DNA of 64,000 nucleotides from Chloroherpetonaceae bacterium. Its GTDB lineage: Bacteria > Bacteroidota > Chlorobiia > Chlorobiales > Thermochlorobacteraceae. How positions within the stretch are numbered: position 1 is the first letter of the stretch; every line of letters starts with the position of its first letter. The stretch covers positions 7,282-71,281 of the forward strand of contig JBKBRB010000012.1 of NCBI GenBank assembly GCA_046292465.1, written 5' to 3'. Below are positions 5,865 to 21,026 of this stretch, piece after piece. A program made the position numbers and the translations under genes. The notes below the pieces were generated by a model that was given only the letters and a program-made list of their open reading frames with translations, made no database searches and was not told the origin of the DNA.

Positions 5865-5913
5865 AATTGCATGTGGTTTAATAGGACATGAAAAAAATTT
5901 TTTCGAAATGCTC

Positions 5914-5943
5914 TTGACAAACTTTCAAAAATTTGTATTTTTG
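5914..5943 (+). promoter_or_regulatory. Promoter of the sRNA gene (-35 TTGACA, 16-nt spacer, -10 TATTTT; also fits the Bacteroidetes-type TAnnTTTG)
   Basis: TTGACA at 5914-5919 and TATTTTTG at 5936-5943. It lies just upstream of a structured, terminator-ended non-coding segment. Confidence 0.6.
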
Positions 5944-5947
5944 CAGT

Positions 5948-6131: not shown

Positions 6132-6260
6132 ATTTCGACTCGATTTAATTTCAGATTGATTTAATCTCGGCCCGACTTACTCGGGGGCGCGCTCACTCGA
6201 GCATGCCGCAAGCCATGTCGACAAGCCATGTCCACACGCGCGTAACATCAAAAACAAGTC

Positions 6261-6980
6261 ATGCTTGAACTGCTCTTGCTCTTCGCTCTCAGCTATCTTG
6301 CCGCAACGCTTTCAGGCGCGGCAGGATTTGGCGGCGCGCTTGTCTTGCTCCCTGCTCTGACCAACCTTGTGGGAATCAGTGCCGCCGTTCCAATTCTGAC
6401 CATCGGACAGATTTTTGGAAATGCGTCAAGAGTGTGGTTCGGCAGAGATGATTTACAGTGGAAGCCCATCCTCTTCTTTCTACTGACGGCTGTTCCTTTA
6501 ACGATTCTTGGCAGTTACCTCTTTGGCGAGATTGAACGCGACAAGGTCAAAATTGGCATTGGTATCTTTCTCATCCTTTTAGTCCTCTATCGCAGAACAA
6601 ACATCAAAAAAGTTGCGCTTGGCGAAAAAGGGCTCTTGCTTGGCGGCGGACTAACAGGGTTTATCTCGGGCATTGCAGGCAGTGCAGGACCGCTTAGCGC
6701 GGCTTTCTTTCTCGGACTCGACCTCACCGCAAAAGCCTACATCGCCAGCGAAGCCTTCACGGCTTTGGTCATTCATCTCACCAAAACCATCATCTACAAC
6801 GCCTTTGCTCTTATCAACTGGACTGAACTTTACTACGGACTCTTCATTGGCGGAGCAATGATTTTGGGAAGTTGGACGGGCAGGAAAATCATTGAAAAAT
6901 TGAGCAGAGAAAAATTCATTCTGCTTGTTGAAGTGTTGCTCATCATCTCAGGACTGCAGTTGATATGGACTGCTCTGTGA
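6261..6980 (+). CDS. TauE/SafE family sulfite/anion exporter (DUF81)
   Basis: 239-aa multi-TM protein with glycine-rich repeats (GAAGFGGALVLLP, GIAGSAGPL) typical of TauE/SafE. Confidence 0.75.
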   Translation: MLELLLLFALSYLAATLSGAAGFGGALVLLPALTNLVGISAAVPILTIGQIFGNASRVWFGRDDLQWKPILFFLLTAVPLTILGSYLFGEIERDKVKIGIGIFLILLVLYRRTNIKKVALGEKGLLLGGGLTGFISGIAGSAGPLSAAFFLGLDLTAKAYIASEAFTALVIHLTKTIIYNAFALINWTELYYGLFIGGAMILGSWTGRKIIEKLSREKFILLVEVLLIISGLQLIWTAL

Positions 6981-7020
6981 AAGCGAGAACAGATTGGACG
7001 GATTAAAGAGATGATTCGCA

Positions 7021-8004
7021 TCACTCGATGGGCGGGCGCACCAAATTTCCAGCCGTGTCGATATATCCGATAGCCCCTTCATTCAGCACTTGTGCTAATC
7101 CATCAACGAACTTTCCGACATAGTCATATTTCGGCTCAACAATCCACTTGCCGTTTGTATCAATCACGCCGACTTTGCCATTTTGCCTAACCGACGCATA
7201 GCCGCGATTGAACGACTCAACCACACTTTCAAATTGCGGCGCAATCACCATTGTGCCCTGCTTATTGATGAATCCCCAACGATGCGAAGCCGTGTCTTGC
7301 ACGGCGGTGAGCCCTTCGCTAAACGAGAGCGCGTTTTCAAATTTCAACTCGATAACAGGCTTTGCGCCGAAATTCACATAGCCCCACAAGTTTCCGATGC
7401 GAACGGCACAAAGGCTATCCGAGAAATCGCGTGCATCGTCGAATTGCGGCTTAATGACGAGCGTTCCTTGTTTATCAATGAATCCGCACTTGCCGTTTAT
7501 CATCACCATTGCGCGCCCTTGCGAAAAGCGGGAGGCTAAGTCATACTGCGGCAAAATCACCTTGCGTCCTTCTTTATTGATGAACCCCCACTTGGCGGAA
7601 TCCATGGTTTCAACAGCGGCGAGTCCTTCGCTAAATCGCATCGCATTTCGGTAGTCAGGCTTAATGGCGAGCGAACCTTCAGCATCGAAGTAGCCAAATG
7701 TTTTGCCGATACGCACTACTGCAAAGCCTTCGGAGTAAGAGCGAATATCGCTGTATTGAATTTGCGTGAGAAGCGAGCCTTTTTCGTTCATCACGCCGAA
7801 GTTGCCTTTCTGCCCCACAATCGCCAGACCTTCGGAGAACGGCATAGCGGCATCGTATTGTGGCACAATGATGACCTTGCCCGTTCTATCCATGTAGCCA
7901 TATTGACGGTTTTCAGAAATCACATACAAGCCGCCTTCACGGCGCGAACAAGATGAAAGAAGCAACACTAACGCGCAAGCCAGCAATCTAATTTTCAACG
8001 GCAT
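7021..8004 (-). CDS. WG/KWG-repeat lipoprotein
   Basis: Lipoprotein signal LLLSSCS, then about 9 repeats of the ..GKxGxIDxxGxxVIxPxYDxAxxFSEGLAxV type (WG-containing repeat). Confidence 0.75.
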   Translation of the reverse strand: MPLKIRLLACALVLLLSSCSRREGGLYVISENRQYGYMDRTGKVIIVPQYDAAMPFSEGLAIVGQKGNFGVMNEKGSLLTQIQYSDIRSYSEGFAVVRIGKTFGYFDAEGSLAIKPDYRNAMRFSEGLAAVETMDSAKWGFINKEGRKVILPQYDLASRFSQGRAMVMINGKCGFIDKQGTLVIKPQFDDARDFSDSLCAVRIGNLWGYVNFGAKPVIELKFENALSFSEGLTAVQDTASHRWGFINKQGTMVIAPQFESVVESFNRGYASVRQNGKVGVIDTNGKWIVEPKYDYVGKFVDGLAQVLNEGAIGYIDTAGNLVRPPIE

Positions 8005-9196
8005 TGAAGTGATAGTCGACCGATTTAAGGATGTTGTAGAAAGTTTGAGCCGGATTATCGGAGCGGTAAAGTTCGTCCATAATCATTGCCTTGCCGATGG
8101 GATAGGTGAGCATGTAGGCGCGGAAGTTGTCGTCGCGCAGGCGCGAAACAGTTCGGCGAATCAATGTGTCTTCGCTTGGAAGGTATTGGCGCAAGTAGGC
8201 GAAAACAGCATCATCGGTTTCGTTCTCGTCATACATCAAGAGTGCGGCATTGACAACGGGCTTGCGTCCGAGTTCTTCGACAAGTTCAATCAGGCGCGCG
8301 TCGTTGTCGGAAATGGTGCGTTGGTGCAACGGCTCGTGCGCTCGAAGCCACTCAATAACGGCAGGGGTTTCGCCGAAGATGATGTAGTTTGCCGCTTCGG
8401 CAAGTCCTTCCGAGATGGTGCTACACGGCGCGCCAAGCAAGTTAATGCTGAACTCAATCAGTCCTTGCTTGCGAACGAGTTCCGATTCTTTGACAATCGC
8501 TTCGGTGTGATGTCCGCAAAAGGCTTCGTGCGTGGTGGTGTGTAATACGCCCCAAATGGTCGTCGGCACATCAATGTTGAGTTCGTAGAGCGATTGATAA
8601 TTGCCTCGATACCAATGGTAGCCTGCCCAAGGCTTTTCGCGCACAAGGCTAACCTCGACCGAATTTTCAGGAAGCGGAAAGAGCGATTCAGTCTTTGCTT
8701 TGGCAAACGTCATTGAGGCTTGAATGAAGTTCATCAGTTCATCGCCTTTGAGCTCGAACTGCGCGCGCCATTGGGTAAATCGTTCGGGAAGACTTCCGTT
8801 ACCAAAATGCTCTGCACGAAGGCGTTCATCGATTTCCGCGATGCGTTCCGTGAACTCGCGTTCGTTGGCATAGTCAATCGTTGAAATGCCGTAGCAAAGC
8901 CGCGCTTCCTCGCGGTAGGAAATCGGTTTATGTTGTTTCTTTTCAATGATGGTTTTAAGCGCGACTAATTGTTTGCGGAGGTAGTTTGCGCGTTCCGACT
9001 CGTCGCCATTGAGCACGCTCAAGAGTTTTTCGGCGTCGGAGTAAAGCGAGTCGAGCGGGCGTATTGGTTCGGCATCAATAATCGATTTAAGTTCAGAAGA
9101 TTTGCCATAATGCGCATCGACTAACCCGTGATAGTGTTTATCTAATCGGTGAGAAAGCAAAATGTATTCTTCGGCGACGTGGTTCAAGGCGTTCAT
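7988..9196 (-). CDS. DUF885-like putative metallopeptidase
   Basis: HEAFCGHHTE resembles the DUF885 HExxPGHH motif. Start set to ATG 9196 (MNALNHVAEEY). The longer track ORF would overlap the divergent deaminase gene. Confidence 0.5.
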   Translation of the reverse strand: MNALNHVAEEYILLSHRLDKHYHGLVDAHYGKSSELKSIIDAEPIRPLDSLYSDAEKLLSVLNGDESERANYLRKQLVALKTIIEKKQHKPISYREEARLCYGISTIDYANEREFTERIAEIDERLRAEHFGNGSLPERFTQWRAQFELKGDELMNFIQASMTFAKAKTESLFPLPENSVEVSLVREKPWAGYHWYRGNYQSLYELNIDVPTTIWGVLHTTTHEAFCGHHTEAIVKESELVRKQGLIEFSINLLGAPCSTISEGLAEAANYIIFGETPAVIEWLRAHEPLHQRTISDNDARLIELVEELGRKPVVNAALLMYDENETDDAVFAYLRQYLPSEDTLIRRTVSRLRDDNFRAYMLTYPIGKAMIMDELYRSDNPAQTFYNILKSVDYHFNAVEN

Positions 9197-9311
9197 GAGC
9201 GGTAATTTTTGAAGTGATTGTAAATATACGATGTGCGTTGGGCTTTGGACAAGAACAAAGTTTATGAAAAAAGTTTGGCATATTTGAAGTTCAATCAAAT
9301 TCAATGTTGTT

Positions 9312-9782
9312 ATGACCCACGAAGCCTTGATGCGCGAAGCGATTCGGCTCTCGCTTGAAAATGTCAAAAACGGAACAGGTGGACCGTTTGCCGCGCTTGT
9401 CGCTCGCAACGGAGAAATTGTGGCTACAGGCACAAATCAAGTAACAACTTTGAACGACCCAACCGCCCACGCCGAAGTTACCGCCATTCGCAATGCGTGC
9501 CGCGCGCTTCAAACCTTTGAACTTCGTGGGTGCGACCTCTACACCACTTGTGAGCCATGTCCGATGTGCCTTGGCGCGATTTATTGGGCGCGACTCGAGC
9601 GCATTTACTTCGGCAACACTCGCATCGACGCCGCCAACATCGGCTTCGACGACGCGTTTATTTACGACGAAATTCCGCGCGACCTTTCCGCACGCAAAAT
9701 TCCCACACGGCAACTCTTGCGCGACGAAGCCCTCGCCGCGTTCCGCGCTTGGCAACAATCAACCACCAAAAAGCCATATTGA
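9312..9782 (+). CDS. CDA-fold nucleoside/guanine deaminase
   Basis: HAEVTAIRNA and PCPMCLGAI zinc-binding motifs. 156 aa, GuaD/TadA-like size. Confidence 0.85.
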   Translation: MTHEALMREAIRLSLENVKNGTGGPFAALVARNGEIVATGTNQVTTLNDPTAHAEVTAIRNACRALQTFELRGCDLYTTCEPCPMCLGAIYWARLERIYFGNTRIDAANIGFDDAFIYDEIPRDLSARKIPTRQLLRDEALAAFRAWQQSTTKKPY

Positions 9783-9788
9783 CTGGAC

Positions 9789-10412
9789 ATGCCTGCCATC
9801 GTTTTAGCCACACATAACCACGACAAAGTCAAAGAAATTGCTCACGCCTTGAATCAACTCTCGAGCATTCAGATTTATTCACTTGACGATTTGCCCGACT
9901 TGCCCGAAGTCATTGAGGACGCGCCCACGCTTGAAGGCAATGCGCTCAAAAAAGCGCGTGAAATTTATCGCTTTGCACAAGCGAAACTCAAAGACATCTT
10001 GGTGCTTGCCGATGATACAGGCTTGGAAGTTGATGCGCTGAACGGCGCGCCCGGCGTCTATTCCGCGCGCTACGCCGAAGCCGACTTAGGCAGAAAGCCC
10101 ACCTACGCCGAAAATGTCGAGAAACTGCTTCGCGACCTTTCAGGCAAGGCGAATCGCGCCGCGCGATTTCGAACCGTGATTGCGCTTGTTGGAACTTGGA
10201 ACGGAACATTCCTTGAAACCACTGTGGAAGGCGTTGCCGAAGGCGAGATTCTTACCGAGCCTTGTGGGACGAGCGGATTTGGATACGACCCCGTGTTCTT
10301 TTCAACCGATGCGCAGAAATCGTTTGCCGAACTTTCGCTCGACGAAAAAAATGCGGTGAGTCATCGTGGCAGAGCACTTCGGGCGGTTTTCGACTTGCTC
10401 ACCGAAGCGTGA
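9789..10412 (+). CDS. rdgB: dITP/XTP pyrophosphatase (RdgB/HAM1)
   Basis: IVLATHNxxKVKE, the DDTGLEVDALNGAPGVYSARY motif and GFGYDPVF. Confidence 0.9.
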   Translation: MPAIVLATHNHDKVKEIAHALNQLSSIQIYSLDDLPDLPEVIEDAPTLEGNALKKAREIYRFAQAKLKDILVLADDTGLEVDALNGAPGVYSARYAEADLGRKPTYAENVEKLLRDLSGKANRAARFRTVIALVGTWNGTFLETTVEGVAEGEILTEPCGTSGFGYDPVFFSTDAQKSFAELSLDEKNAVSHRGRALRAVFDLLTEA

Positions 10413-10499
10413 GCGATGATTTTGAAACAAAGCACCAATGAATATCGCCTAAATCGTTACATTTGCAAGCCAATTTTAACAAACGAACTCTTTTGAAAC

Positions 10500-11381
10500 A
10501 TGAGCGATACCCTCAATGCCGTCCAATTCGCCAAGCAAGCACTTTTGGATAGCGTGGAAAACGAGGCGGAATACAAGTCGGTTTTGAGCCGTCTTGACGC
10601 AAAACAACTCAAAGACCTTCAAAAACAGTATTGGGATTTTTTAATTGAAGAATCTCAAACGACGAAGAAGCCGATTTCGCGTGGCGACATTCTCGCGTGC
10701 TTGGAGCCAACGGCGAAGTATCAACAGCGCGCGCGATGCAAAGAGCCAGAAGGTTATTGCACGATTTCTATGTGTGTGCGCATCAACCCACAGTGTGCTA
10801 AAACGCGCATTTCTGAAATTATGCTGGCGATTCGTCCGCTCATCGTTTCATTGCTCAATGAGCGACCGGAATTGCGTCAACATTTCAAGCCGCCTGAAGT
10901 TGCACCCGCGCTTTCAGCGCCAATGCCCAACGTATTGAGCGAGCCGACACTTTTAGAAGAAAAACCGCTTGTGAGGCGCGAGCGCGTGCCCGAAGTCATT
11001 CCCGACACGGTGCGCCAAAAGTTTCAGAAGTATAAAGAGCATCTTGGCAGAATGATTGAGACCGAAGGGCTGGAACACGCGATTTTAATGAGCGAAGGCG
11101 GAACAATTTTAGTTCATGCGTCGTCGAAGCCACACGAGTTGGAAAAACTTTCCGCAACTGTCGGCGACGAAATTTTTGCCGTTACTGAACAAGGCGAAGC
11201 GGCACACTTGCATCATTTGCTAACCGTTACTAAAGAATACAGCGAAGGTGTGGTCGCCATTCGTTCAATTGGCAAAAAACTGTATCTTGTTGGCGTGTCG
11301 CGCATCGTGTTGCCTGCCAGAATTCATAGTTTAATAATTAAACTCGGCAACGAACTCTCAGAAGAAGTCTCTAACACTTAA
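10500..11381 (+). CDS. Hypothetical protein with a 4-Cys cluster and a C-terminal Roadblock/LC7 (MglB-like) domain
   Basis: Cys cluster CKEPEGYCTISMCVRINPQC. The C-terminal ~110 aa (GLEHAILMSEGGTILVHAS...VVAIRSIGKKLYLVGVS) looks Roadblock-like by eye. Confidence 0.4.
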   Translation: MSDTLNAVQFAKQALLDSVENEAEYKSVLSRLDAKQLKDLQKQYWDFLIEESQTTKKPISRGDILACLEPTAKYQQRARCKEPEGYCTISMCVRINPQCAKTRISEIMLAIRPLIVSLLNERPELRQHFKPPEVAPALSAPMPNVLSEPTLLEEKPLVRRERVPEVIPDTVRQKFQKYKEHLGRMIETEGLEHAILMSEGGTILVHASSKPHELEKLSATVGDEIFAVTEQGEAAHLHHLLTVTKEYSEGVVAIRSIGKKLYLVGVSRIVLPARIHSLIIKLGNELSEEVSNT

Positions 11382-11395
11382 TCATCGTATTATCA

Positions 11396-11731
11396 ATGAA
11401 ATACACCGAGTCGGAACAAAACGGCGTTGTAATTTTGCACCTTAAAGGAGATTTGCTTGGCGGCAGCGATATTGCCGAGTTCAAAGAAAAATTGAAATCG
11501 CTTCTCGATGCGGGCAAGAAAAACATTCTCATCGATATGAGCGATGTTACATATGTTAATTCCTCGGGCATTGGCATGTTGATTGCGGGCATGACAACGG
11601 TTGTGCAAGCGGGCGGAAAGTTCAAAATTTGCAACATTGAAAAAAACATCAAGAACGTCTTCGTCATCACCAACCTCGTCAAGGTCTTCGACACGTTCAA
11701 CACGGTCGATGAAGCGATTGCGACCTTTTAG
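11396..11731 (+). CDS. STAS-domain anti-sigma-factor antagonist (SpoIIAA/RsbV-like)
   Basis: 111 aa. ILIDMSDVTYVNSSGIGMLI with the conserved phosphorylatable Ser context. Starts 14 nt after the preceding gene. Confidence 0.85.
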   Translation: MKYTESEQNGVVILHLKGDLLGGSDIAEFKEKLKSLLDAGKKNILIDMSDVTYVNSSGIGMLIAGMTTVVQAGGKFKICNIEKNIKNVFVITNLVKVFDTFNTVDEAIATF

Positions 11732-13203: not shown

Positions 13204-14241
13204 TCACTCGTTAGACGCCAACGATTGTGAGTAAAAAGTTTTGAGCAAATCTTTGGCAGCGCGAAACGGACTTAACTCACCTTTGCGCACCGCGCTTTCT
13301 AACTCATGCAATCTCGATTTAATCTGTTCAGAGTTGTAAAAGCGCAGTAAGAGTTCATATTCCAGCGTCTGACGAAGCCAATACGCCGCTTGTGTTTCGC
13401 GCTTTCGCTCCATCCACCCATTTTCCATCATTTTCTTTTCAAAGTCAAAAATGATGTCGCGCACTTCTAAAATGCCGTCGCCGGTTAATGCCGAGCAGGT
13501 CAGCGTTTTCGGAATCCAACCATTTGGATTAGGCGGAAACAGATGCAGGGCTTGTTGGTATTCTTGTTGGGCGAGTTTGGCTTTGGTGAGGTTTGCGCCA
13601 TCGGCTTTGTTGATGGCAATTAAATCAGCCATTTCCATAATGCCGCGCTTAATCCCTTGCAATTCGTCGCCCGCACCTGCAAGCATGAGCAAGAGGAAAA
13701 AGTCGGTCATGGAATGAACGGCAACTTCGGACTGCCCGACGCCGACCGTTTCAACAATCACCGCATTGTAGCCTGCCGCTTCGCACAGGAGCATCGCTTC
13801 GCGCGTTTTAGGTGCAATGCCCCCCAGCGAGCCCGACGATGGCGACGGACGAATAAATGCCTGCTCATGCGTTGAGAGTTTTTCCATTCGAGTTTTATCG
13901 CCTAAAATGCTTCCGCGCGATTTTTCGCTTGTTGGGTCAATGGCTAACACTGCCACGCGCCGCCCTGCTTCAATGAGCGACAGTCCAAAGGCTTCAATGA
14001 ATGTGCTTTTGCCCACGCCCGGCACGCCCGTAATCCCAATGCGAATCGACTTGCCGCTATGCTTCAAACACGTCCCAACAACTTCTTCGGCAATCGCTTG
14101 ATGCTCAGCACGATGGCTCTCTACAAGCGTAATTGCGCGCGAGAGCACGGTCCGATTCCCGTTCAAAATGCCTTCCACATACTCCGACGGTGAGAGGAGC
14201 GGTTTTCGCTTGGCAACAAATGACGATTGAGGTTCTGACAC
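13204..14241 (-). CDS. meaB: Methylmalonyl-CoA mutase-associated GTPase MeaB/ArgK
   Basis: GITGVPGVGKSTFIEAFG P-loop, VETVGVGQSE, INKAD. 345 aa. Confidence 0.9.
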   Translation of the reverse strand: MSEPQSSFVAKRKPLLSPSEYVEGILNGNRTVLSRAITLVESHRAEHQAIAEEVVGTCLKHSGKSIRIGITGVPGVGKSTFIEAFGLSLIEAGRRVAVLAIDPTSEKSRGSILGDKTRMEKLSTHEQAFIRPSPSSGSLGGIAPKTREAMLLCEAAGYNAVIVETVGVGQSEVAVHSMTDFFLLLMLAGAGDELQGIKRGIMEMADLIAINKADGANLTKAKLAQQEYQQALHLFPPNPNGWIPKTLTCSALTGDGILEVRDIIFDFEKKMMENGWMERKRETQAAYWLRQTLEYELLLRFYNSEQIKSRLHELESAVRKGELSPFRAAKDLLKTFYSQSLASNE

Positions 14242-14407
14242 TGCAAATGTTTGTTTGAGATTCTTTCGTCGAAGTTACCGCTTTTTGAGAGAGATATTCA
14301 ACCAACGAAATGAATAGTGAAGAATGAACAATGAAAAGTTGCTTTGCGATGGATTCTTTGCGCCGCTCGGTGTGGCGCAGAAGGGCGATGAACGAATGAA
14401 GGAGCAA

Positions 14408-14908
14408 TTACTCGATGAACACGTCGCCGTAGGTGATGATGTTTCCAGCAACGTCAATAACGCGCACGCGGAAGAGCCGTCCGCGCAGGTCGGCGAGGTT
14501 GCGGTTCGGGGAGATTTTCACGAGGTCAATCAGGTAATTTTTCGCGCCGAAGTTCGGCACATTCACATCGGTCTCGAGAATGACGGGATAATTGACGGGA
14601 AAGCCGTCGCGCGTGATGCCGAGAAAATCAAGTCGCGGAAATCCGACCGTCGAGGAAAATTGCATGGTCAGTTGCACTTGCCCGTTGCGCGTTGGATTGG
14701 GAAACGCGACTTGGGAAATTTGCACTTCGCCCGCAAAGCGTGCAGCGATGCGCCAATCGTTCGGGTCTTCGCTTAAAATCTGTCCGTTTTGATTGGTGCG
14801 CGTGAAGTTTTCGATTGGGTCATCTTCGGTATCTGGCTCTCCGCAAGAAAACAGCATGAGCAAACCAAGAAGCATAATCCCTTTTGAGAAAAGGCGATAA
14901 ACGGTCAT
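14408..14908 (-). CDS. Small lipoprotein, unknown function
   Basis: Signal plus lipobox LLMLFSCG. Its start overlaps the stop of the upstream kinase (ATGA at 14905-14908). Confidence 0.6.
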   Translation of the reverse strand: MTVYRLFSKGIMLLGLLMLFSCGEPDTEDDPIENFTRTNQNGQILSEDPNDWRIAARFAGEVQISQVAFPNPTRNGQVQLTMQFSSTVGFPRLDFLGITRDGFPVNYPVILETDVNVPNFGAKNYLIDLVKISPNRNLADLRGRLFRVRVIDVAGNIITYGDVFIE

Positions 14909-15969
14909 TCGGATTCAGATGTGCTTTTAGGCAAGATGGGCAACTCGACGATAAATGTCGCCCCTTTCTCTTTTCCCTCCGACTCTGCCCACAATTTTCC
15001 GTTGTGCAGTTCAACAAGTTGTTTAGCAATAGAAAGTCCCAACCCTGTTGAGGATTCGCCGCCGGTGGGTCTTGCCGACAGGCGTTGAAAGCGTCCGAAT
15101 AGTTTCTTCATATCGTCTTCGGTTAGCCCTTGCCCTTCGTCGCGCACCGTAAATCGAATAACGGGCAGTTGCTCATCGCTCGATAGCGTGCGAAAGATGC
15201 GAATCCAAATTGTCTTACCGATTGCGCTGTATTTAATGGCGTTGCTCACAAGGTTATCGAAGACTTCGCGAATGCGCTCGGCATCAACTTCGGCAATGCA
15301 GTCGGGTTCGGCGTGGAAGTCAATGCGCTGTTCTTTTTGGTTGGCTTGTTGAAGATTAGCGGCAAGCACGAAGGAAGCAAGTTCGCCGAGACTGCATGGA
15401 AAGCGATGGAGCGTGAGTTTACCTGCATCAATCGCCGTCGTGTTTAGAAGTTCATTGATGAGTTTGAACATGCGTTGCGCGGCGTTCTGAATCGTCGTGG
15501 CATACTTTTGCATATCGGCAGGTCTTTCCGCACATTCTTGTATTAAGGAAGCAAATCCGATGATCGATTGAAGCGGATTTTTGAGGTCGTGTGCGGCGAT
15601 AGAGAGCAGTTCGGTTTTGAATCGGCTAGCTTCTTCGGCACGGCGTTTTTCGGCTTCGGCGATGCTGAGGGCACGGGCGAGTTCGGCGTTGAGCGCGTTC
15701 AGGGCTTCTTGGGTGCGGCGCAATTTGAGCTGCGTGCTATCGCTGATGCGCGTAATTTTCGCCGTTTGTTGAAGCAGTTTCTCGTAGTGTTCAATGAGCG
15801 TCTCGTATTCGTTTTGAAGGTCTTTTTTGGAAATGGAAGCCTGTGAGGCGATTGCCCGCGCTCGTTTGGCAAATTCCATTTCGGCTTGAAAGACGCTTTC
15901 GGCGTCTCGCTCGCTGATTTTCTTTTCTCGCTGAGATTTCGGCAAGGCTTCGCTTGGTTTTATTGTCAT
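14905..15969 (-). CDS. Soluble histidine kinase (coiled-coil N-terminus, HisKA + HATPase_c, no sensor or TM domain)
   Basis: H-box FKTELLSIAAHDLKNPL, N-box DNLVSNAIKYS, G-boxes DEGQGL and GLGLSI. The first ~110 aa are predicted helical/coiled-coil. Confidence 0.9.
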   Translation of the reverse strand: MTIKPSEALPKSQREKKISERDAESVFQAEMEFAKRARAIASQASISKKDLQNEYETLIEHYEKLLQQTAKITRISDSTQLKLRRTQEALNALNAELARALSIAEAEKRRAEEASRFKTELLSIAAHDLKNPLQSIIGFASLIQECAERPADMQKYATTIQNAAQRMFKLINELLNTTAIDAGKLTLHRFPCSLGELASFVLAANLQQANQKEQRIDFHAEPDCIAEVDAERIREVFDNLVSNAIKYSAIGKTIWIRIFRTLSSDEQLPVIRFTVRDEGQGLTEDDMKKLFGRFQRLSARPTGGESSTGLGLSIAKQLVELHNGKLWAESEGKEKGATFIVELPILPKSTSESE

Positions 15970-16043
15970 TCATCGCAAGAGGCATACTTTTTCAGACCGT
16001 GTGCCTCTTGTTACTTGGCGTTATTTTCATCAATACGATTTCA

Positions 16044-16418
16044 TCAATACGCTACAAGGCTAAACGGAAGATTAATGTCTTGCGCAAATTCTTCGCCGCT
16101 TTCCTGCATGTCTTCGTCGTCTTGTCGGTAATGCCATATCACTTCAATTTTTCTGCCTTTGGCATGTGCGGATTCCAAAAGGCTGAGCATATCTAAAATG
16201 CACTTTGAAGTGCTAGTGTTGAAGTAAGAGAATTTAAAGTTCATCACAATCGGTTGTGTGGATTCAGAAAGATATTGATTGAGCCAATCGAGAACTTGCT
16301 GATAAAACTGCATGGCAGAGTCGGGATAGGATTCTCCCGTGATATTGAGCACGCCAGTTTGTACGTCAAAGTTAATGCTGGGCGTGGTTTTCGTCTCGGC
16401 AATCGTGAGATTGGTCAT
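16044..16418 (-). CDS. DUF1987 protein (SiaC-like partner-switch phosphoprotein)
   Basis: 124 aa. INFDxxTGxLxIxGESYPD and FKFSYFNTSTSK, the motif bearing the phospho-Thr in P. aeruginosa SiaC. Confidence 0.8.
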   Translation of the reverse strand: MTNLTIAETKTTPSINFDVQTGVLNITGESYPDSAMQFYQQVLDWLNQYLSESTQPIVMNFKFSYFNTSTSKCILDMLSLLESAHAKGRKIEVIWHYRQDDEDMQESGEEFAQDINLPFSLVAY

Positions 16419-16443
16419 AAAAATTTTGAATCGAGTTTGAGGT

Positions 16444-16992
16444 TTATTTAGCAGTCTTGCAGATGCTGACGTTTAGGGTGAAAAACGACTTATCGTCCGT
16501 GAGCGGTTGCAGGCTGAACTCCAATGGTTTATCGGATTTTCGCGCCATGTCGATGAGCCCCAGTCCGGCGCCCTTGCTTCCTTCGGGCGGCATTTGCTTA
16601 CGGCGTTCTTGGTAGAGTTTCTTTAACTTGTCTTTCGTGAGCGCGTTGAGGTAGCGACAATGGGCTTCCAAACGCTCGGCATCGGCGTTGGTTACCGCAT
16701 TTCCGGAACTGATGGAATACATTTCTTCTTGCTCGCTAATAACAATAACGCCAACCCCAACTTCCTTGCCAATGTGTTGCAGCAAATCTTTTTCTGCCGA
16801 GTAGTGCAAGATGTTTTGCGCCATTTCCACGAACACGGCGAAAATGCGTTGGATTTTGTCGTCGTGTCGGAGTTGGTTGCGGACCAGCGAACCCAATTCA
16901 ACTAAGAGTTCTTGTGAAATCGCGCCTTTGAACGTCATCAAAATGCGCGACTTGTTCATGTCGTTGTAGTATTTGAGCAAGTCAAAGGACAT
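16444..16992 (-). CDS. SiaB-family protein kinase (GHKL-like, anti-sigma-kinase fold)
   Basis: 182 aa. ILMTFKGAISQELL, VEMAQNILHYS, KGAGLGLIDMARKS. Size and motifs match the SiaB family. Lies immediately upstream of the DUF1987 gene. Confidence 0.75.
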   Translation of the reverse strand: MSFDLLKYYNDMNKSRILMTFKGAISQELLVELGSLVRNQLRHDDKIQRIFAVFVEMAQNILHYSAEKDLLQHIGKEVGVGVIVISEQEEMYSISSGNAVTNADAERLEAHCRYLNALTKDKLKKLYQERRKQMPPEGSKGAGLGLIDMARKSDKPLEFSLQPLTDDKSFFTLNVSICKTAK

Positions 16993-17151
16993 CGTTATCC
17001 GAGAAACATTTTTGAAAATAAATGTTTGAAATTACGTTTTTCAACTGACTTTTGCGGGAAGAAATAAAACCGCATGGAGTCGAGAATTTTTTGCACCTTG
17101 CTTTCTAAAAGTCGTGCGAATTGTTTTTGCTGCAATCTTTCCGTTTTTGTT

Positions 17152-18252
17152 ATGAGTGAGACGCCAAACGCCTCGTCGGAGCAATCTTCAAATCAATCCA
17201 ATCTTCCGCCAGAGCAACTTCCTGATTTGCCGGTTGGCAGTGATGCTTCGGGCGGAATTTTTCCGAATCGGAATCGCGGATGCGCTATTACGTTTGTTGT
17301 AATTGTCGTTCTCTTTTTTGGGTGGCTCGCGCTTCTTGTCAATCTACCGGCTTCGCGCCCTGATTCTGAACCGCTATCCCCGTATTTGCAAAAAAAGTTC
17401 GACGCCTTGCCGCTCGGCGCAAATGTGATTGCGTTTATCAACCTTCACGCCATTCGCCAAACCGATTTTTGGAACACGTTTCTTCCCGACAGCATCAAAA
17501 CCAAACCGCTTGTTTCCGATTCAAGCACGGTTGGCAAATTGATGCGCCTCGCCGATTTCAATCTCACGCGCGACACTGATACGCTCATCTACGCTGCTGT
17601 CAATCGGCTCGATGCGCCTGAACTGACCTTCGCCGTCCTTCTCGCTTCTTTCGACACGGCAAAAGTTTTCAGAGGGTTGTCGCTCTTTGCCAAAGAACGT
17701 AAATCCATTTCGCCGATGCACACTGCATTTCGCCTTGACGAACAGCAATGGATGAGTTTCATTTCGGCAACGGAACTTGTCATTGCAAACGATGTGAGTT
17801 TGATTGAGCGATATATCGCGCCACAAGAAAGTTTCTTTGCCGCCGATACCGTTATGAAGCCGCTTCTTGATGAAGTGCGCTATAAGTCGCAGTTGTGGTT
17901 GGCTCTTGGCTCAACGCGCTGGGCGATGGAAGCCTTGCGCGGCTTAACTGCATCGAGCGAGGGGCTTTCCGAATCAGGCAACATCAGCAAGATTGAGCGG
18001 CTCACCCTTTGCACGCAATTCTCTGACGGAGTTGCCGTCGAGACCGTTTGGCACTACGACTCACGCACGAGCGCGTTTTTTGCGGGGGGATTAATTCGAC
18101 TTGCCGCATGGGTTTCAAAGCAGTTTAGCCAACGGCAAAGCCAAGCCATCAAGAAGATTCTGGCTGAATTGAAAATTACGCAAAATTTAGAAACGCTGAT
18201 TTTCGAAGCCGATATTGAGCGCACCTTGCTCAATGAACTGCGAAGCAATTAG
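17152..18252 (+). CDS. Hypothetical membrane-anchored protein
   Basis: Ser/Pro-rich N-terminus, one TM segment (ITFVVIVVLFFGWLALLV), then ~300 aa of unknown fold. Start moved to ATG 17152. Confidence 0.5.
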   Translation: MSETPNASSEQSSNQSNLPPEQLPDLPVGSDASGGIFPNRNRGCAITFVVIVVLFFGWLALLVNLPASRPDSEPLSPYLQKKFDALPLGANVIAFINLHAIRQTDFWNTFLPDSIKTKPLVSDSSTVGKLMRLADFNLTRDTDTLIYAAVNRLDAPELTFAVLLASFDTAKVFRGLSLFAKERKSISPMHTAFRLDEQQWMSFISATELVIANDVSLIERYIAPQESFFAADTVMKPLLDEVRYKSQLWLALGSTRWAMEALRGLTASSEGLSESGNISKIERLTLCTQFSDGVAVETVWHYDSRTSAFFAGGLIRLAAWVSKQFSQRQSQAIKKILAELKITQNLETLIFEADIERTLLNELRSN

Positions 18253-18800: not shown

Positions 18801-20870
18801 TTATTGTGTTGGCAGTTCGACAAAAAACGTCGCGCCTTTATCCTTCCCTTCCGACTCTGCCCACACTTTGCCGCCGTGCAATTCCACGATTTGCTTCACG
18901 ATGGATAAGCCCAGACCTGTTGAACTTTCGCCGCCCGTTGGTCGCGCCGAAAGCCGCTGAAATTTTCCGAAGAGTTTGGCTTTGTCTGCTTCCGTCAAGC
19001 CTTGTCCTTCGTCTTTGACGGCTATACGAATCGCACCTTTTTCTACCTGCTTCAAACTCACGCGAATTGTCTTACTTCTTGGCGAATACTTGATGGCGTT
19101 GGAAATGAGATTTTCAAAGACTTCGCGCATGCGCTCTGCATCGAGTTCAGCGAGGCAATTTTCGTCAAGGTCGAGTTCGATGGTTTGCGATTTCCTTTCA
19201 GCGTTTGCTTGATAATTTGCAACAACCGCACGAAGGAGGTCCGCAACAACGACTTTGGATTTACACAGTGCAATCCCTGTCATCTCGAGTTTAACATTGT
19301 TCAGCAATTCTTCAATGAGTTTATACATTCGTTGAGCAACGCGCTCAATGGTTGCAGCGGCAGCATGGGTTTTGGGTTTGTTGTCTTTGTCTTCTTGAAT
19401 GAGTTGTGCAAAGCCAATGACAGATTGAAGCGGGTTTTTAAGGTCGTGCGCGGCAATGCCGAGAAGTTCGGTCTTGAAAGTGTTGGCTTCTTCGGCGATG
19501 GCTTTCAGGCGTTTCGTTTCGGCAAGGGCTTTGGTTAGTTCGATGTTCTGTTGCTTGTGTCGCTCGGCTTCTTTGCGTGCAAGTTCGTTCTCGAAGAGGG
19601 CCTGTTGGACCGCAATTTTTTTGCCTTGCTCTTCGTTGAAGACGGCTTCTCTGATGGTGTGATAATTTTGGTAAGCGCGATACGCCGATTCAAAGTCGCC
19701 TAATTGCTCATAGAGAATTGCCAGTTGCTCAAAGGCTTCATAAGATTGGCGGCGCATCGAGTGTTTTTCGCTTGCGGCAATTGCTTCGGTGAGATAGGTT
19801 TTGGCAAGGTCATAATTTTTTTGTGCAATCAAAGTTTTGCCAATCAAAATCATGACGCGAACGATGTTGCTTTGGTCGCCGAGTTCGCACAAGCGTTGAA
19901 GACTTTGTTGGTAGTATTCAAACGCGAGATTGTGCTCACCTTTGGATTCATAAATGCCAGCAATGTTGCCGAGTTCTGTTGCAATGCTGTTTTGTAAGCC
20001 GATTTCTTCAAAGCGTGCAAGAGCTTCTTGATAAAAGCCGAGGGCTTTATCAAACTCTTTGAGGGCATTATAGACGTTTCCGAGCGAGCTCGTCGCAATG
20101 GCTTCCAAGCGTTTATCTCCGCTTTCACGGCTCATCGTTAAGGCTTCTTCAAAGAGTTGAAGCGCCTTGTAGTGATTGCCGAGCGAGAGATAGACTTCGC
20201 CAATGTTGAGTTGAATGTTGGTAATTTCGCGTATCTCTGTTTTGGGGTCGCGTAGGTTGAGGCTTTCAGTGTAGCATTCAATCGCCTTTGGATAATCACT
20301 CAACAGCACATGAATCATGCCGATGTTGTTAAGCGTTGATGCCATTCCTTTTTTGTCGCCCAGTTCCCGCTTGAGCGCGAGGCTTTCTTCATAACATTTG
20401 AGCGCAGCAGCATGATTTTCAATCGAGTAGTAAATCAACCCGATGTTGTTGAGTGCGGCGGCAATGCCTTTCTTATCGCCTAACTCTCGCCGAAGTGTGA
20501 GGCTGTCGTTGTAAAAATCAAGGGATTTGTGGTAGTAGGCACGGTAGTATTCAATGCGTCCAAGGTTGTTTAACACCGATGCCATCATGTCGCGCTTGTT
20601 GAGTTGTTTGAACAGTAGCAACGCTTTTCGTCCCGATTGCACTGCTTCGTCGTAAGAAGCCGATGCAGTTTGCGCTAAACTCAAACAATAGTAAGCTTCT
20701 GCTTTTACTTCACACCACTCGTCAGTTTCAGCCTGTTGATTGATGCTTGCGACGATTTCTTCAACTTGTGGCATGGCTTCCTTTGGCTTTTGAGCCGCAT
20801 GCTCTTTAAGCCACGCTAATTTGGCTCTCACTTCTTCAAGCGCAACGTTTTCTCTCTGGCGGTGCTCCAT
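18801..20870 (-). CDS. TPR-repeat sensor histidine kinase
   Basis: About 9 TPR units (..LNNIGxIYxxxxxYxxALxxYExSL..), a coiled coil, then an HK core. The core is paralogous to 14905..15969 (FKTELLGIAAHDLKNPLQSVIGF; RPTGGESSTGLGLSI). Start could be ATG 20870 or GTG 20927. Confidence 0.9.
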   Translation of the reverse strand: MEHRQRENVALEEVRAKLAWLKEHAAQKPKEAMPQVEEIVASINQQAETDEWCEVKAEAYYCLSLAQTASASYDEAVQSGRKALLLFKQLNKRDMMASVLNNLGRIEYYRAYYHKSLDFYNDSLTLRRELGDKKGIAAALNNIGLIYYSIENHAAALKCYEESLALKRELGDKKGMASTLNNIGMIHVLLSDYPKAIECYTESLNLRDPKTEIREITNIQLNIGEVYLSLGNHYKALQLFEEALTMSRESGDKRLEAIATSSLGNVYNALKEFDKALGFYQEALARFEEIGLQNSIATELGNIAGIYESKGEHNLAFEYYQQSLQRLCELGDQSNIVRVMILIGKTLIAQKNYDLAKTYLTEAIAASEKHSMRRQSYEAFEQLAILYEQLGDFESAYRAYQNYHTIREAVFNEEQGKKIAVQQALFENELARKEAERHKQQNIELTKALAETKRLKAIAEEANTFKTELLGIAAHDLKNPLQSVIGFAQLIQEDKDNKPKTHAAAATIERVAQRMYKLIEELLNNVKLEMTGIALCKSKVVVADLLRAVVANYQANAERKSQTIELDLDENCLAELDAERMREVFENLISNAIKYSPRSKTIRVSLKQVEKGAIRIAVKDEGQGLTEADKAKLFGKFQRLSARPTGGESSTGLGLSIVKQIVELHGGKVWAESEGKDKGATFFVELPTQ

Positions 20871-21026
20871 TATCAGTTGATTAAAAAGAAAAATTACGAC
20901 AATTTGACGGTAAGTGTAAGCAAGCACGGCTCTTAACGCTGTGCGCCTGCGGCGAACGTTCTAACTTAAATTTCGCTTCCTGACCTGAACAGCGTAACTT
21001 GCGCCCGAATCATTTTTTCACTGTCT

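What the first reader, a model, noticed from the sequence alone, without database searches (positions are those of the whole stretch)
14408..16992. SiaB/SiaC-like partner-switch pair wired to a sensor-less coiled-coil histidine kinase instead of a diguanylate cyclase
The minus-strand gene order is as follows:
- SiaB-family kinase, 182 aa.
- DUF1987/SiaC-like phosphoprotein, 124 aa, with the YFNTSTSK motif.
- After a 74-nt gap, a soluble histidine kinase whose only N-terminal feature is a ~110-aa coiled coil.
- A small lipoprotein joined to the kinase by an ATGA overlap.

In the characterised P. aeruginosa SiaABCD system, unphosphorylated SiaC binds the helical stalk of the cyclase SiaD and activates it, and SiaA is the PP2C phosphatase. 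Here the output position holds a histidine kinase with a comparable helical stalk. There is no PP2C phosphatase and no response regulator in the window.

This would be a Ser/Thr partner switch gating a two-component kinase. The only nearby input candidate is the divergent membrane-anchored protein at 17152..18252.
Basis: partly seen in the sequence, partly recalled or inferred. Interest (0 to 1): 0.6.

Follow-up and report, generated by a model that had tools for sequence, protein, structure and literature searches.

The report
SiaB/SiaC phospho-switch docked on histidine kinase
A small threonine-phosphorylation switch, known only for turning on a biofilm (c-di-GMP) enzyme in Pseudomonas, is joined here to a sensor-less histidine kinase that carries the same docking helix, and sister genera still have the c-di-GMP enzyme at that position, so evolution has rewired the switch into two-component signalling.

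Summary
The minus strand encodes a SiaB-family kinase (16444-16992), a SiaC/DUF1987 phosphoprotein with the N67-T68-S69 phospho-site (16044-16418), a soluble HisKA/HATPase_c kinase (14905-15969) and a lipoprotein joined by an ATGA overlap.

The core interpretation is supported.
- Kinase residues 18-94 form a conserved ~77-aa stalk domain. Its only significant PDB match is the SiaC-binding stalk of P. aeruginosa SiaD (E 3.4e-8).
- The motif K71-ITRISDSTQ-LKLRR keeps SiaD's SiaC contacts S82 and Q86 (here S76 and Q80).
- Sister genera have SiaA-SiaB-SiaC followed by stalk-GGDEF in place of the kinase. Their stalk is 47-49% identical to this one.
- The kinase core comes from this genome's own TPR-kinase paralogues.
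- The stalk occurs only in SiaC-positive genomes (10 of 16, against 0 of 235).
- The spacing from motif to phospho-His keeps one heptad register in this genus and three other lineages; a SiaC-stalk salt bridge shows a charge swap.

- A SiaA-type PP2C exists, but unlinked, on contig C13.
- A LytTR response regulator lies in the window at 55890-56636.
- The divergent membrane protein and the lipoprotein are conserved across the order and are not part of the module.

Stalk-kinase fusions are widespread, and this scan noted the class in at least 8 other genomes. I found no paper describing it. No binding or activity was measured.

The parts
16444..16992 (-). siaB-family protein kinase (182 aa). 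Predicted to phosphorylate T68 of SiaC.
   Evidence: NF038262 scores 197.2 bits against a cut-off of 85, and PF19788 scores 147.8 bits. It matches P. aeruginosa SiaB, 6kko_A, at E 5.4e-26. It falls below the equivalog cut-off of NF038264 (127 against 225).
16044..16418 (-). siaC (DUF1987) phosphoprotein, 124 aa. The phospho-site N67-T68-S69 is at 16212-16220.
   Evidence: PF09345 scores 157.6 bits. It matches 6kko_C/7e6g at E 2.9e-29, gap-free with the same numbering. The coordinates of the NTS site were verified. It is the only SiaC gene in the genome.
14905..15969 (-). Soluble stalk-histidine kinase HK354, 354 aa, the predicted SiaC target.
   Evidence: HisKA and HATPase_c are present. There is no transmembrane segment. 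The AlphaFold2 model has one continuous helix over residues 48-145. The gene is 77-93% identical in four other genomes of the genus, with dN/dS of 0.11-0.15.
15688..15918 (-). SiaC-docking stalk domain (HK354 residues 18-94). No Pfam family covers it.
   Evidence: The alignment A3 has E30, D77 and Q80 invariant. The A3 profile hits only SiaD, 7e6g_A, in the PDB, at E 3.4e-8. It matches 1012 representative clusters. It is the only copy in this genome. It is 47-49% identical to the stalk of the sister-genus cyclases.
15715..15759 (-). Core docking motif K71-I-T-R-I-S76-D-S-T-Q80-L-K-L-R-R85.
   Evidence: It aligns to SiaD K77-D91. K77, R80, I81, S82, D83, Q86 and R90 are identical and V78 is replaced by I. 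In the crystal structure SiaC T68 hydrogen-bonds SiaD S82 and Q86 (PMC8457831).
15421..15618 (-). HisKA (DHp) domain. The phospho-accepting H127 is at 15589-15591.
   Evidence: PF00512 scores 53.5 bits over residues 118-183. H127 lies 47 residues after Q80, on the same predicted helix.
14935..15285 (-). HATPase_c catalytic domain (residues 229-345) with intact N, G1, F and G2 boxes.
   Evidence: PF02518 scores 95.3 bits. The core is 54-58% identical to the genome's own TPR-kinase paralogues and groups with them in the tree.
17015..17044 (-). Promoter-like site just upstream of siaB (weak evidence).
   Evidence: It is the only sigma-70-like match in 14000-17400, and no terminator-like site lies in the SiaC-kinase gap. 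The count is not above the shuffled expectation, and promoters in this phylum may differ from the sigma-70 consensus.
14408..14908 (-). Lipoprotein gene (166 aa) overlapping the kinase stop by ATGA. Probably co-transcribed, but a passenger and not a module member.
   Evidence: Homologues occur across the order, including in genomes without SiaC, and lie elsewhere in sister genera. In G009 the gene follows a glycosyltransferase gene.
18801..20927 (-). TPR-histidine kinase paralogue (708 aa), representing the family that supplied the HK354 catalytic core.
   Evidence: Its residues 461-706 are 57-59% identical to HK354 residues 94-344. DHp helix 1 is nearly identical. The tree places it with HK354.

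Best explanation
This is a SiaABCD-type partner switch whose output enzyme is a histidine kinase instead of a diguanylate cyclase.

**Proposed mechanism (inferred)**
1. Unphosphorylated SiaC docks on the parallel N-terminal stalk of the HK354 dimer, at K71-R85. SiaC T68 contacts S76 and Q80.
2. That site lies on the same continuous helix (residues 48-145) as the phospho-accepting H127, 47 residues downstream and in a conserved heptad register. SiaC binding would therefore set the conformation of the DHp bundle. By analogy with SiaD, it most likely switches autokinase activity on.
3. SiaB phosphorylates T68 and releases SiaC. An unlinked, soluble SiaA-type PP2C (368 aa, contig C13) removes the phosphate.
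4. HK354 then signals to a response regulator that has not been identified. It is probably shared with the paralogous TPR kinases.

**Origin**
The gene is a natural chimera. Its stalk comes from the family's SiaD-like cyclase and its catalytic core from the lineage's TPR-kinase family. The joint is at about residues 86-99.

**Status of each step**
- Shown by sequence and comparison: family membership, stalk homology, the chimeric origin, co-occurrence of stalk and SiaC, and purifying selection.
- Inferred: physical binding, its dependence on phosphorylation, the sign of regulation, and the response-regulator partner.
For: - **Families.** SiaB, SiaC and the kinase match their models and the P. 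aeruginosa structures.
- **Stalk homology to SiaD.**
  - The stalk profile A3 hits only SiaD (7e6g_A) in the PDB, at E 3.4e-8, over both SiaC-binding motifs.
  - HK354 keeps the equivalents of K77, R80, I81, S82, D83, Q86 and R90.
- **Sister genera.** Genera g2, g3 and g6 have [propeller-TM-PP2C SiaA]-SiaB-SiaC-[stalk-GGDEF]. Their stalk is 35-49% identical to that of HK354 (47-49% in g3) up to residue ~99, where homology to the TPR kinase begins at residue 94.
- **Origin of the core.** The HK354 core groups with the genome's own TPR-kinase paralogues (support 91/94). Stalk-kinases of other lineages sit elsewhere in the tree.
- **Single target.** The stalk occurs once in this genome.
- **Co-occurrence.**
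  - In a sample of 251 genomes of the phylum, the stalk was found in 10. All 10 are among the 16 SiaC-positive genomes, and none of the 235 SiaC-negative genomes has it.
  - In the four positive genomes outside this family, the stalk gene lies directly downstream of siaC.
- **Same fusion elsewhere.** Stalk-kinase follows SiaC in Kapaibacterium, Azospirillum, a MAG labelled Chloracidobacterium, and genome G095.
- **Second locus in G004.** It reads TPR-PP2C, SiaC, stalk-kinase, TPR-PP2C.
- **Heptad register.**
  - The distance from motif Q to the phospho-His is 47, 47, 40, 40, 40 and 19 residues, all equal to 5 mod 7.
  - The distance from Q to the start of the GGDEF domain is 17, 24, 31 and 38, all equal to 3 mod 7.
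  - Among representative clusters, 19 of 19 GGDEF proteins and 19 of 25 kinases keep these registers.
- **Charge swap.** The contact SiaC-103: stalk-91 reads R:D in P. aeruginosa, R:E in Azospirillum, D:R in this genus and D:K in Kapaibacterium and Leptospiraceae.
- **Structure model.** AlphaFold2 predicts one helix over residues 48-145, running through both the motif and H127.
- **Phosphatase.**
  - The 368-aa PP2C has a single PDB hit, SiaA (6k4e_A), at E 6e-51.
  - It is present in all five other genomes of the genus (partial, at a contig end, in G002).
  - It matches only the SiaA gene in sister genera.
- **Selection.** dN/dS is 0.075-0.15 for the stalk and 0.08-0.18 for the core.
Against: - No binding, phosphorylation or kinase assay exists for any stalk-kinase, and multimer modelling could not be run here.
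- Several SiaC contact residues differ from P. aeruginosa: Q10K, I71S, D79S and L107S in SiaC, and R74Q, R84S, Y85T and M88K in the stalk.
- HK354 has one clear motif, whereas SiaD has two.
- The phosphatase is unlinked and has lost the sensor domains of the sister-genus SiaA. The input signal is therefore unknown.
- No cognate response regulator is linked.
- The sign of regulation is only an analogy.
- Co-occurrence counts include related genomes and are not independent.
Confidence: 0.75

Rival explanations
1. SiaC does dock on the stalk, but binding inhibits the autokinase or switches HK354 to phosphatase mode. Phosphorylation of SiaC by SiaB would then turn the pathway on.
For: The architecture and all docking evidence are the same as for the main explanation. 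Histidine kinases are already dimers through the DHp bundle. The rationale for SiaD, where SiaC converts an inactive pentamer into an active dimer (PMC8457831), therefore need not carry over.
Against: The only characterised case, SiaC with SiaD, is an activation. The conserved heptad register points to a rigid coiled-coil link, which fits either sign. No data here discriminate between the two.
Confidence: 0.15
2. The adjacency is historical only. SiaB/SiaC act on some other target, or on none, and the HK354 stalk is a leftover signalling helix that no longer binds SiaC.
For: - Several P. aeruginosa contact residues are substituted.
- The SiaA-type phosphatase has left the locus.
- Most of the 80 sampled SiaB-SiaC loci, which are largely from Bacteroidota, have no stalk-bearing gene nearby. 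Linked targets are therefore not universal.
Against: - The stalk is the only one in the genome.
- It is under purifying selection as strong as that on the catalytic core.
- It keeps S76, D77 and Q80.
- It shows a compensatory charge swap with its own SiaC.
- The gene order is kept in the four other genomes of the genus where SiaC was found.
- The stalk is never found without SiaC in the 251-genome sample.
Confidence: 0.07
3. The similarity between the HK354 N-terminus and the SiaD stalk is generic coiled-coil or low-complexity resemblance, not homology.
For: A single-sequence comparison with SiaD is weak (E 0.46), and coiled coils attract spurious matches.
Against: - The profile search of the PDB gives SiaD alone at E 3.4e-8. 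The next hit is at E 0.022.
- The invariant positions E30, D77 and Q80 are polar, not the hydrophobic core positions that generic coiled-coil similarity rests on.
- The domain is almost always N-terminal.
- It is restricted to SiaC-positive genomes.
Confidence: 0.03

Closest known systems
SiaABCD partner-switch system of Pseudomonas aeruginosa (PA0172-PA0169; PDB 6K4E, 6KKO, 6KKP, 7E6G; PMC8457831, PMC7647112)
   Same: - A SiaB-family kinase.
- A SiaC/DUF1987 phosphoprotein with the same N67-T68-S69 site.
- A SiaA-type PP2C present in the genome.
- An output enzyme with an N-terminal helical stalk that carries the K-x-x-R-I-S-D-x-x-Q SiaC-binding motif, in a fixed heptad register to the catalytic domain.
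   Different: - The output is a HisKA/HATPase_c histidine kinase, not a GGDEF cyclase.
- The stalk has one docking motif instead of two.
- The PP2C is unlinked and soluble. It has only a short helical N-terminal region resembling the TPR-to-catalytic-domain linker of the TPR kinases, where SiaA has a membrane/HAMP sensor.
- SiaB and SiaC score below the NCBIfam equivalog cut-offs.
SiaA-SiaB-SiaC-(stalk-GGDEF) loci of sister Chloroherpetonaceae genera
   Same: - SiaB and SiaC are orthologous, at 50-56% identity.
- The stalk is homologous, at 35-49% identity.
- The gene order SiaB-SiaC-output is the same.
   Different: - Their output is a 247-278 aa GGDEF cyclase.
- A 1186-aa propeller-TM-PP2C SiaA lies upstream.
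- Two of these genera (g2, g3) also have an unlinked stalk-class III cyclase.
Partner-switch control of diguanylate cyclases by STAS proteins (HsbA-HsbD in P. aeruginosa; BgrV-BgrR in Sinorhizobium), as discussed in PMC8457831
   Same: A small, STAS-like protein that can be phosphorylated is toggled by a kinase/PP2C pair. It binds and modulates a signalling enzyme rather than a sigma factor.
   Different: Those systems use a canonical STAS fold and an RsbW-type kinase, and their output is a cyclase. No docking-stalk domain of this kind is described for them.
PII (GlnB) control of the soluble histidine kinase NtrB (from general knowledge; not tested here)
   Same: This is a likeness in how it works. 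A small protein binds a sensor-less cytoplasmic histidine kinase, its binding is set by reversible covalent modification, and it acts as the kinase's input.
   Different: The protein families are unrelated. The modification is uridylylation rather than threonine phosphorylation. PII binds the kinase's catalytic region, not an N-terminal stalk.

Membership tests
SiaABCD-type partner switch | SiaB-family GHKL-like protein kinase | tested here: met
   NF038262 scores 197.2 bits against a cut-off of 85. It matches 6kko_A at E 5.4e-26. The equivalog model NF038264 is not reached (127 against 225), so this is a family member and not an equivalog.
SiaABCD-type partner switch | SiaC (DUF1987) protein with the phosphorylatable Thr in the N-T-S motif | tested here: met
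   PF09345 scores 157.6 bits. The alignment to 6kko_C is gap-free with N67-T68-S69 conserved. The equivalog model NF038265 is not reached (125 against 150).
SiaABCD-type partner switch | SiaA-type PP2C phosphatase encoded in the operon | tested here: not met
   No SpoIIE/PP2C gene lies in the window. A SiaA-type PP2C does exist on contig C13: 368 aa, 54% identical to the PP2C domain of the sister-genus SiaA, with SiaA (6k4e_A, E 6e-51) as its only PDB hit.
SiaABCD-type partner switch | GGDEF diguanylate cyclase (SiaD) as the output | tested here: not met
   The output gene has HisKA and HATPase_c and no GGDEF domain. Sister genera have GGDEF directly after siaC.
SiaABCD-type partner switch | SiaC-binding motif on an N-terminal helical stalk of the output enzyme | tested here: met
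   The motif K71-R85 keeps 7 of 13 SiaD contact residues unchanged, among them S82 and Q86, and one more (V78 to I) is conservative. The stalk profile hits SiaD at E 3.4e-8. The motif lies on a predicted continuous helix.
SiaABCD-type partner switch | Phosphorylation-dependent physical binding of SiaC to the output | not testable with these tools
   Only monomer structure prediction was available, and no biochemistry. Indirect support comes from the charge-swap covariation at SiaC-103: stalk-91.
HisKA-family two-component histidine kinase | H-box histidine in a DHp domain, plus a catalytic HATPase_c domain with N, G1, F and G2 boxes | tested here: met
   PF00512 scores 53.5 bits and PF02518 scores 95.3 bits. 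H127 sits in AAHDLKNPL. The boxes DNLVSNAIKY, DEGQGL, FGRF and GLGLSI are read directly from the sequence.
HisKA-family two-component histidine kinase | Cognate response regulator | tested here: inconclusive
   The genome has 54 receiver-domain matches and none is adjacent. The nearest is a LytTR regulator 39 kb away. DHp helix 1 is nearly identical to that of three TPR-kinase paralogues, and none of the core paralogues has a receiver gene nearby.

The most novel reading that the evidence does not exclude
The ~77-aa stalk is an uncatalogued, portable SiaC-docking domain. It lets one Thr phospho-switch drive many kinds of output: histidine kinases, GGDEF cyclases, class III cyclases, PP2C phosphatases, Ser/Thr kinases and HD proteins.

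In this genus, evolution performed the swap in place. The c-di-GMP output of an ancestral SiaABCD operon was replaced by a His-Asp phosphorelay output, by fusing the SiaD stalk in heptad register onto a local kinase core. SiaC then acts as the kinase's only sensor.

If this holds, SiaC targets can be predicted from sequence in any genome. The pair of sister genera would also be a natural test bed for how a coiled-coil stalk transmits the same binding event to two unrelated catalytic domains.
Probability: 0.6. Interest if true: 0.72.

Novelty: new variant of a known kind. Interest (0 to 1): 0.6.

Why it matters
SiaABCD is the only characterised DUF1987 system, and it is known as a c-di-GMP and biofilm switch. 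Full-text searches found no paper that links DUF1987 or SiaC to histidine kinases. The authors of the SiaC-SiaD structure only suggest that DUF1987 proteins may modulate adjacent proteins.

- **A second signalling currency.** This locus and its relatives indicate that the same Thr phospho-switch plugs into two-component signalling through a conserved docking stalk that no Pfam family covers. Among the 150 best stalk-bearing representative clusters, histidine kinases are the commonest output: 43 have HATPase_c and 26 have GGDEF.
- **An input for sensor-less kinases.** This gives a concrete, testable input mechanism for a class of soluble kinases that lack a sensor domain.
- **A sequence rule for finding targets.** The stalk domain, together with its heptad register, can be used to find SiaC targets in other genomes.
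- **A natural domain swap.** Sister genera differ in the output fused to the same stalk, which can be used to study how coiled-coil signals are transmitted.

Tried and rejected
- **Divergent membrane protein (17152-18252) as the input: rejected.** Homologues occur in 14 of 15 related genomes, including Chlorobiaceae without SiaC. In G004, a member of the same genus, the gene lies on a different contig from the Sia locus.
- **Lipoprotein as a module member: rejected.** It is conserved in genomes without SiaC, and in a sister genus it follows a glycosyltransferase gene.
- **Word-indexed protein search with stalk residues 1-105.** It returned only close Chloroherpetonaceae kinases. The exhaustive profile search was needed.
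- **Single-sequence PDB search with the cyclase stalk.** SiaD came up only at E 0.46. The profile was needed.
- **A second, distal SiaC motif in HK354.** None is evident. The N-terminal helix has a conserved F-x-x-E pattern instead.
- **Promoter and terminator scan.** It is uninformative, because the counts do not exceed the shuffled expectation.
- **Finding the cognate response regulator by adjacency to paralogous kinases.** None of the paralogues has a neighbouring receiver gene.
- **Literature.** No paper links DUF1987 to histidine kinases.
- **One Pfam call failed** on a wrong frame and was repeated with corrected coordinates.


Full report
**1. What is in the sequence**

The minus strand of 14408-16992 holds four ORFs exactly as described.

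| Coordinates | Length | Identity | Evidence |
|---|---|---|---|
| 16444-16992 | 182 aa | SiaB-family kinase | NF038262 197.2 bits (cut-off 85); PF19788 147.8 bits; P. aeruginosa SiaB 6kko_A, E 5.4e-26 |
| 16044-16418 | 124 aa | SiaC/DUF1987 | PF09345 157.6 bits; P. aeruginosa SiaC, E 2.9e-29, gap-free |
| 14905-15969 | 354 aa | Histidine kinase "HK354" | HisKA 118-183, HATPase_c 229-345 |
| 14408-14908 | 166 aa | Lipoprotein | No family match; starts inside the kinase stop (ATGA) |

- Because the SiaC alignment has no gaps, the numbering is the same as in P. aeruginosa, and N67-T68-S69 (16212-16220) is conserved.
- HK354 begins 74 nt after the end of siaC. It has no hydrophobic segment. Its H, N, G1, F and G2 boxes are intact.
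- Both small proteins fall below NCBI's equivalog cut-offs. They are family members, not strict equivalogs.
- The organism is a member of the Chloroherpetonaceae. This comes from source names of near-identical proteins and an earlier scan note.
- The genome is 2.70 Mb in 56 contigs. It has a single SiaC gene.

**2. The kinase N-terminus is a SiaD-type stalk**

- *Within the genus.* In four other genomes of the genus (g1), the order SiaB-SiaC-HK354-lipoprotein-MeaB is kept, at 73-96% protein identity.
- *In sister genera.* In genera g2, g3 and g6 the same SiaB-SiaC pair (50-56% identical) is preceded by a protein of about 1186 aa. In g2 and g3 it was read in full: a two-component-regulator propeller, Y_Y_Y, a membrane segment and a SpoIIE PP2C domain, which makes it a SiaA analogue. 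In g6 the contig ends inside siaB, and a SiaA-like PP2C frame of 1257 aa lies on another contig. The pair is followed by a 247-278 aa protein made of a helical N-terminus and a GGDEF domain, a SiaD analogue.
- *Where the homology starts and stops.* tblastn with HK354 matches those cyclases only over its residues ~11-99 (37-51% identity). Its residues 94-344 match the TPR kinase encoded at 18801-20927 (57-59%).
- *The joint.* A multiple alignment shows the stalk homology running to about residue 99. There the cyclases enter the GGDEF domain and HK354 enters the coiled coil that precedes the H-box. The three sequences share N-x-(E/K)-L at the joint.

**3. The link to the solved SiaC-SiaD complex**

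The crystal structure paper reports three points (PMC8457831):
- SiaC binds two conserved motifs on the SiaD stalk.
- SiaC T68 hydrogen-bonds SiaD S82 and Q86.
- T68 phosphorylation blocks binding.

The PDB alignment of the sister-genus cyclase gives the proximal SiaD motif as K77-V-A-R-I-S82-D-R-Y-Q86-Q-M-M-R-D91. HK354 reads K71-I-T-R-I-S76-D-S-T-Q80-L-K-L-R-R85.
- K77, R80, I81, S82, D83, Q86 and R90 are identical, and V78 is replaced by I.
- R74, R84, Y85, M88 and D91 differ.

I built a 77-position profile of stalks from 14 proteins that sit next to SiaC genes (A3). It hits one PDB chain significantly: SiaD 7e6g_A at E 3.4e-8. The match covers the N-terminal helix plus the distal motif, and separately the proximal motif. 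The next hit is at E 0.022. Pfam has no model for this region.

**4. Evidence that the stalk and SiaC belong together**

- *One target.* The stalk occurs once in this genome.
- *Co-occurrence.* In an even sample of 251 genomes of the phylum, all at least 90% complete, SiaC was found in 16 and the stalk (E <= 1e-5) in 10.
  - All 10 are SiaC-positive, and none of the 235 SiaC-negative genomes has a stalk.
  - In the four positive genomes outside this family, the stalk gene lies directly downstream of siaC.
  - These genomes include relatives, so I give counts and no p-value.
- *Neighbours of SiaC elsewhere.* Among 80 SiaC loci fetched from GTDB species genomes, the stalk-bearing neighbours are as follows:

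| Output fused to the stalk | Lineages |
|---|---|
| HisKA/HATPase_c kinase | Two Kapaibacterium MAGs; Azospirillum; a MAG labelled Chloracidobacterium that has both a stalk-GGDEF and a stalk-kinase |
| GAF + class III cyclase | Leptospiraceae |
| Class III cyclase + hemerythrin, and a PP2C | Thiomargarita |
| GGDEF cyclase | Several lineages |
| Stalk-only protein, 150-190 aa | Some Bacteroidia |

- *Caveat.* Most of the 80 sampled loci, which are largely from Bacteroidota, have no stalk gene within reach.
- *Charge swap.* The contact SiaC-R103: SiaD-D91 shows charge reversal across lineages:
  - R:D in P. aeruginosa;
  - R:E on the Azospirillum kinase;
  - D:R in this genus;
  - D:K in Kapaibacterium and Leptospiraceae;
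  - Q:Q, Q:R or Q:K in the sister genera.
- *Heptad register.*
  - The distance from motif Q to the phospho-His is 47 (this genus and the second G004 locus), 40 (three lineages) and 19 (Azospirillum). All equal 5 mod 7.
  - The distance from Q to the first GGDEF motif is 17, 24, 31 and 38. All equal 3 mod 7.
  - In the 150 best representative clusters, 19 of 19 GGDEF proteins and 19 of 25 kinases keep those registers.
- *Structure model.* AlphaFold2 gives a mean pLDDT of 79.9, with 76-87 over the stalk. It predicts a helix at 11-41, a short loop, and then one uninterrupted helix at 48-145 that carries both the docking motif and H127.
- *Selection.* The stalk is as constrained as the catalytic core. 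dN/dS is 0.075-0.15 for the stalk and 0.08-0.18 for the core in three within-genus comparisons.

**5. How widespread the stalk is**

The exhaustive search of 1.84 billion cluster representatives found 1012 clusters at E <= 1e-3 and 205 at E <= 1e-10. The match is nearly always at the N-terminus. The Pfam tally of the best 150 is:

| Pfam domain | Clusters |
|---|---|
| HATPase_c | 43 |
| HisKA | 37 |
| GGDEF | 26 |
| SpoIIE | 10 |
| Guanylate_cyc | 9 |
| Response_reg | 8 |
| Hpt | 4 |
| Pkinase | 3 |
| HD | 1 |
| Fused SiaC | 1 |

The query profile held five kinase stalks among its 14 rows, so the ranking leans toward kinases.

**6. Origin of this kinase**

- The HK354 stalk is closest to the stalks of the g3 cyclases (47-49%). 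It is further from stalk-kinases of other lineages (41% or less) and from the second stalk-kinase of G004 (35%).
- In a maximum-likelihood tree of kinase cores, HK354 falls inside a clade (support 91/94) with this genome's own TPR-kinase paralogues (contigs C12, C2, C8, C14, C13, C7).
- The stalk-kinases of Kapaibacterium L029/G095, the Chloracidobacterium-labelled MAG and Azospirillum sit with other core families. The Azospirillum branch is long and its placement is unsure.
- The simplest reading is an in-place domain swap in the ancestor of this genus, with independent stalk-kinase fusions in other lineages.

**7. The phosphatase**

- The window has no PP2C.
- Contig C13 (44368-45471) encodes a 368-aa soluble protein. 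Its PP2C domain is 54% identical to that of the sister-genus SiaA, whereas the next best PP2C in the genome is 26% identical.
- Its only PDB hit is P. aeruginosa SiaA, 6k4e_A, at E 6e-51.
- It is 81-96% conserved in all five other genomes of the genus (partial, at a contig end, in G002). In g2, g3 and g6 it matches only the SiaA gene itself.
- It is therefore the relocated SiaA orthologue. It has lost the propeller and membrane sensor and keeps a short helical N-terminal region that resembles the TPR-to-catalytic-domain linker of the TPR kinases (read by eye; Pfam finds no TPR there).
- One genome of the genus, G004, has a second locus reading TPR-PP2C, SiaC, stalk-kinase, TPR-PP2C, with no SiaB.

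**8. What does not belong to the module**

- The lipoprotein and the divergent 366-aa membrane protein have homologues across the order, including in genomes without SiaC. They lie elsewhere in sister genera. They are neighbours, not module members.
- A REC+LytTR response regulator lies at 55890-56636. The statement that the window has no response regulator is therefore wrong, although nothing links this regulator to HK354.
- DHp helix 1 of HK354 is nearly identical to that of three TPR-kinase paralogues, and none of the core paralogues has a receiver gene nearby. A shared orphan regulator is plausible but is only an inference.

**9. Mechanism, rivals and novelty**

- *Mechanism (inferred).*
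  - Unphosphorylated SiaC binds the stalk dimer and, through the continuous in-register helix, sets the state of the DHp bundle.
  - SiaB phosphorylation of T68 releases SiaC, and the C13 PP2C resets it.
  - I take activation as the likelier sign, by analogy with SiaD. Inhibition is a live rival.
- *Rivals.* Two further rivals are that the adjacency is a relic, and that the similarity is generic coiled coil. Both are disfavoured by the co-occurrence, selection, covariation and profile-specificity results above.
- *Literature.* Searches found no paper that connects DUF1987 or SiaC with histidine kinases.
- *Earlier scan notes.* These report the same class of locus in at least 8 other genomes. 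I read them after reaching this reading. They agree with it but are not independent evidence.
- *Verdict.* This is a real and conserved new variant of the SiaABCD partner switch. It has good comparative support and no experimental test.

Noticed in passing
window 55890-56636 (+): A REC+LytTR response regulator of 248 aa. Nothing links it to the kinase.
   Followed up: partly
G000 contig C13:44368-45471 (L027:6366-7472, -): A soluble 368-aa SiaA-type PP2C lying between a recX-like gene and priA (gene names by eye). It has a short helical N-terminal region resembling the linker of the TPR kinases, in place of the propeller and membrane sensor of the sister-genus SiaA. It is conserved in all genomes of the genus.
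   Followed up: yes
L119:1477-2457, L125:1438-2385, L124 (sister genera g2 and g3): Sister genera carry a second, unlinked stalk-bearing protein of 315-326 aa: the stalk fused to a class III adenylate/guanylate cyclase (cyclase motifs read by eye in L119 and L125; L124 has the stalk match only). SiaC may therefore have two targets there. The genus of the window has only the stalk-kinase.
   Followed up: partly
L026 (G004:C53) 5728-11624: A second Sia-like locus in one genome of the same genus: TPR-SpoIIE (727 aa), SiaC (44% identical), stalk-kinase (343 aa, 49% identical), TPR-SpoIIE (728 aa). It has no SiaB gene.
   Followed up: partly
window 18801-20927 (-), and G000 contigs C2:63442, C8:89378, C14:51999, C13:56280, C7:6313: A family of six or more paralogous kinases (the window copy is a TPR kinase) with similar DHp helices, nearly identical in three of them. 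None has an adjacent response regulator, which may indicate a many-kinases-to-one-regulator network.
   Followed up: partly
L032:2312-3316 (Thiomargarita MAG): The SiaC-docking stalk is fused to a SpoIIE PP2C phosphatase, next to a stalk-cyclase-hemerythrin protein. This may be feedback of SiaC on its own phosphatase.
   Followed up: no
L045, L051, L081, L100 (Bacteroidia MAGs), just downstream of siaC: Small proteins of 150-190 aa made only of the stalk plus more coiled coil, with no enzymatic domain. They may be adaptors or decoys for SiaC.
   Followed up: no
window 10500-11731 (+): A STAS anti-sigma-antagonist gene (111 aa) follows a 293-aa protein with no family match. This is a second partner-switch component in the window with no kinase or phosphatase beside it. 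Three further SpoIIE phosphatases lie on contigs C4, C10 and C1.
   Followed up: no
L024 (G010:C8) about 7480-8900: In this sister-genus genome the stalk-GGDEF ORF stops after 164 aa, and SiaB matches in two frames. This may be gene decay or assembly error.
   Followed up: no
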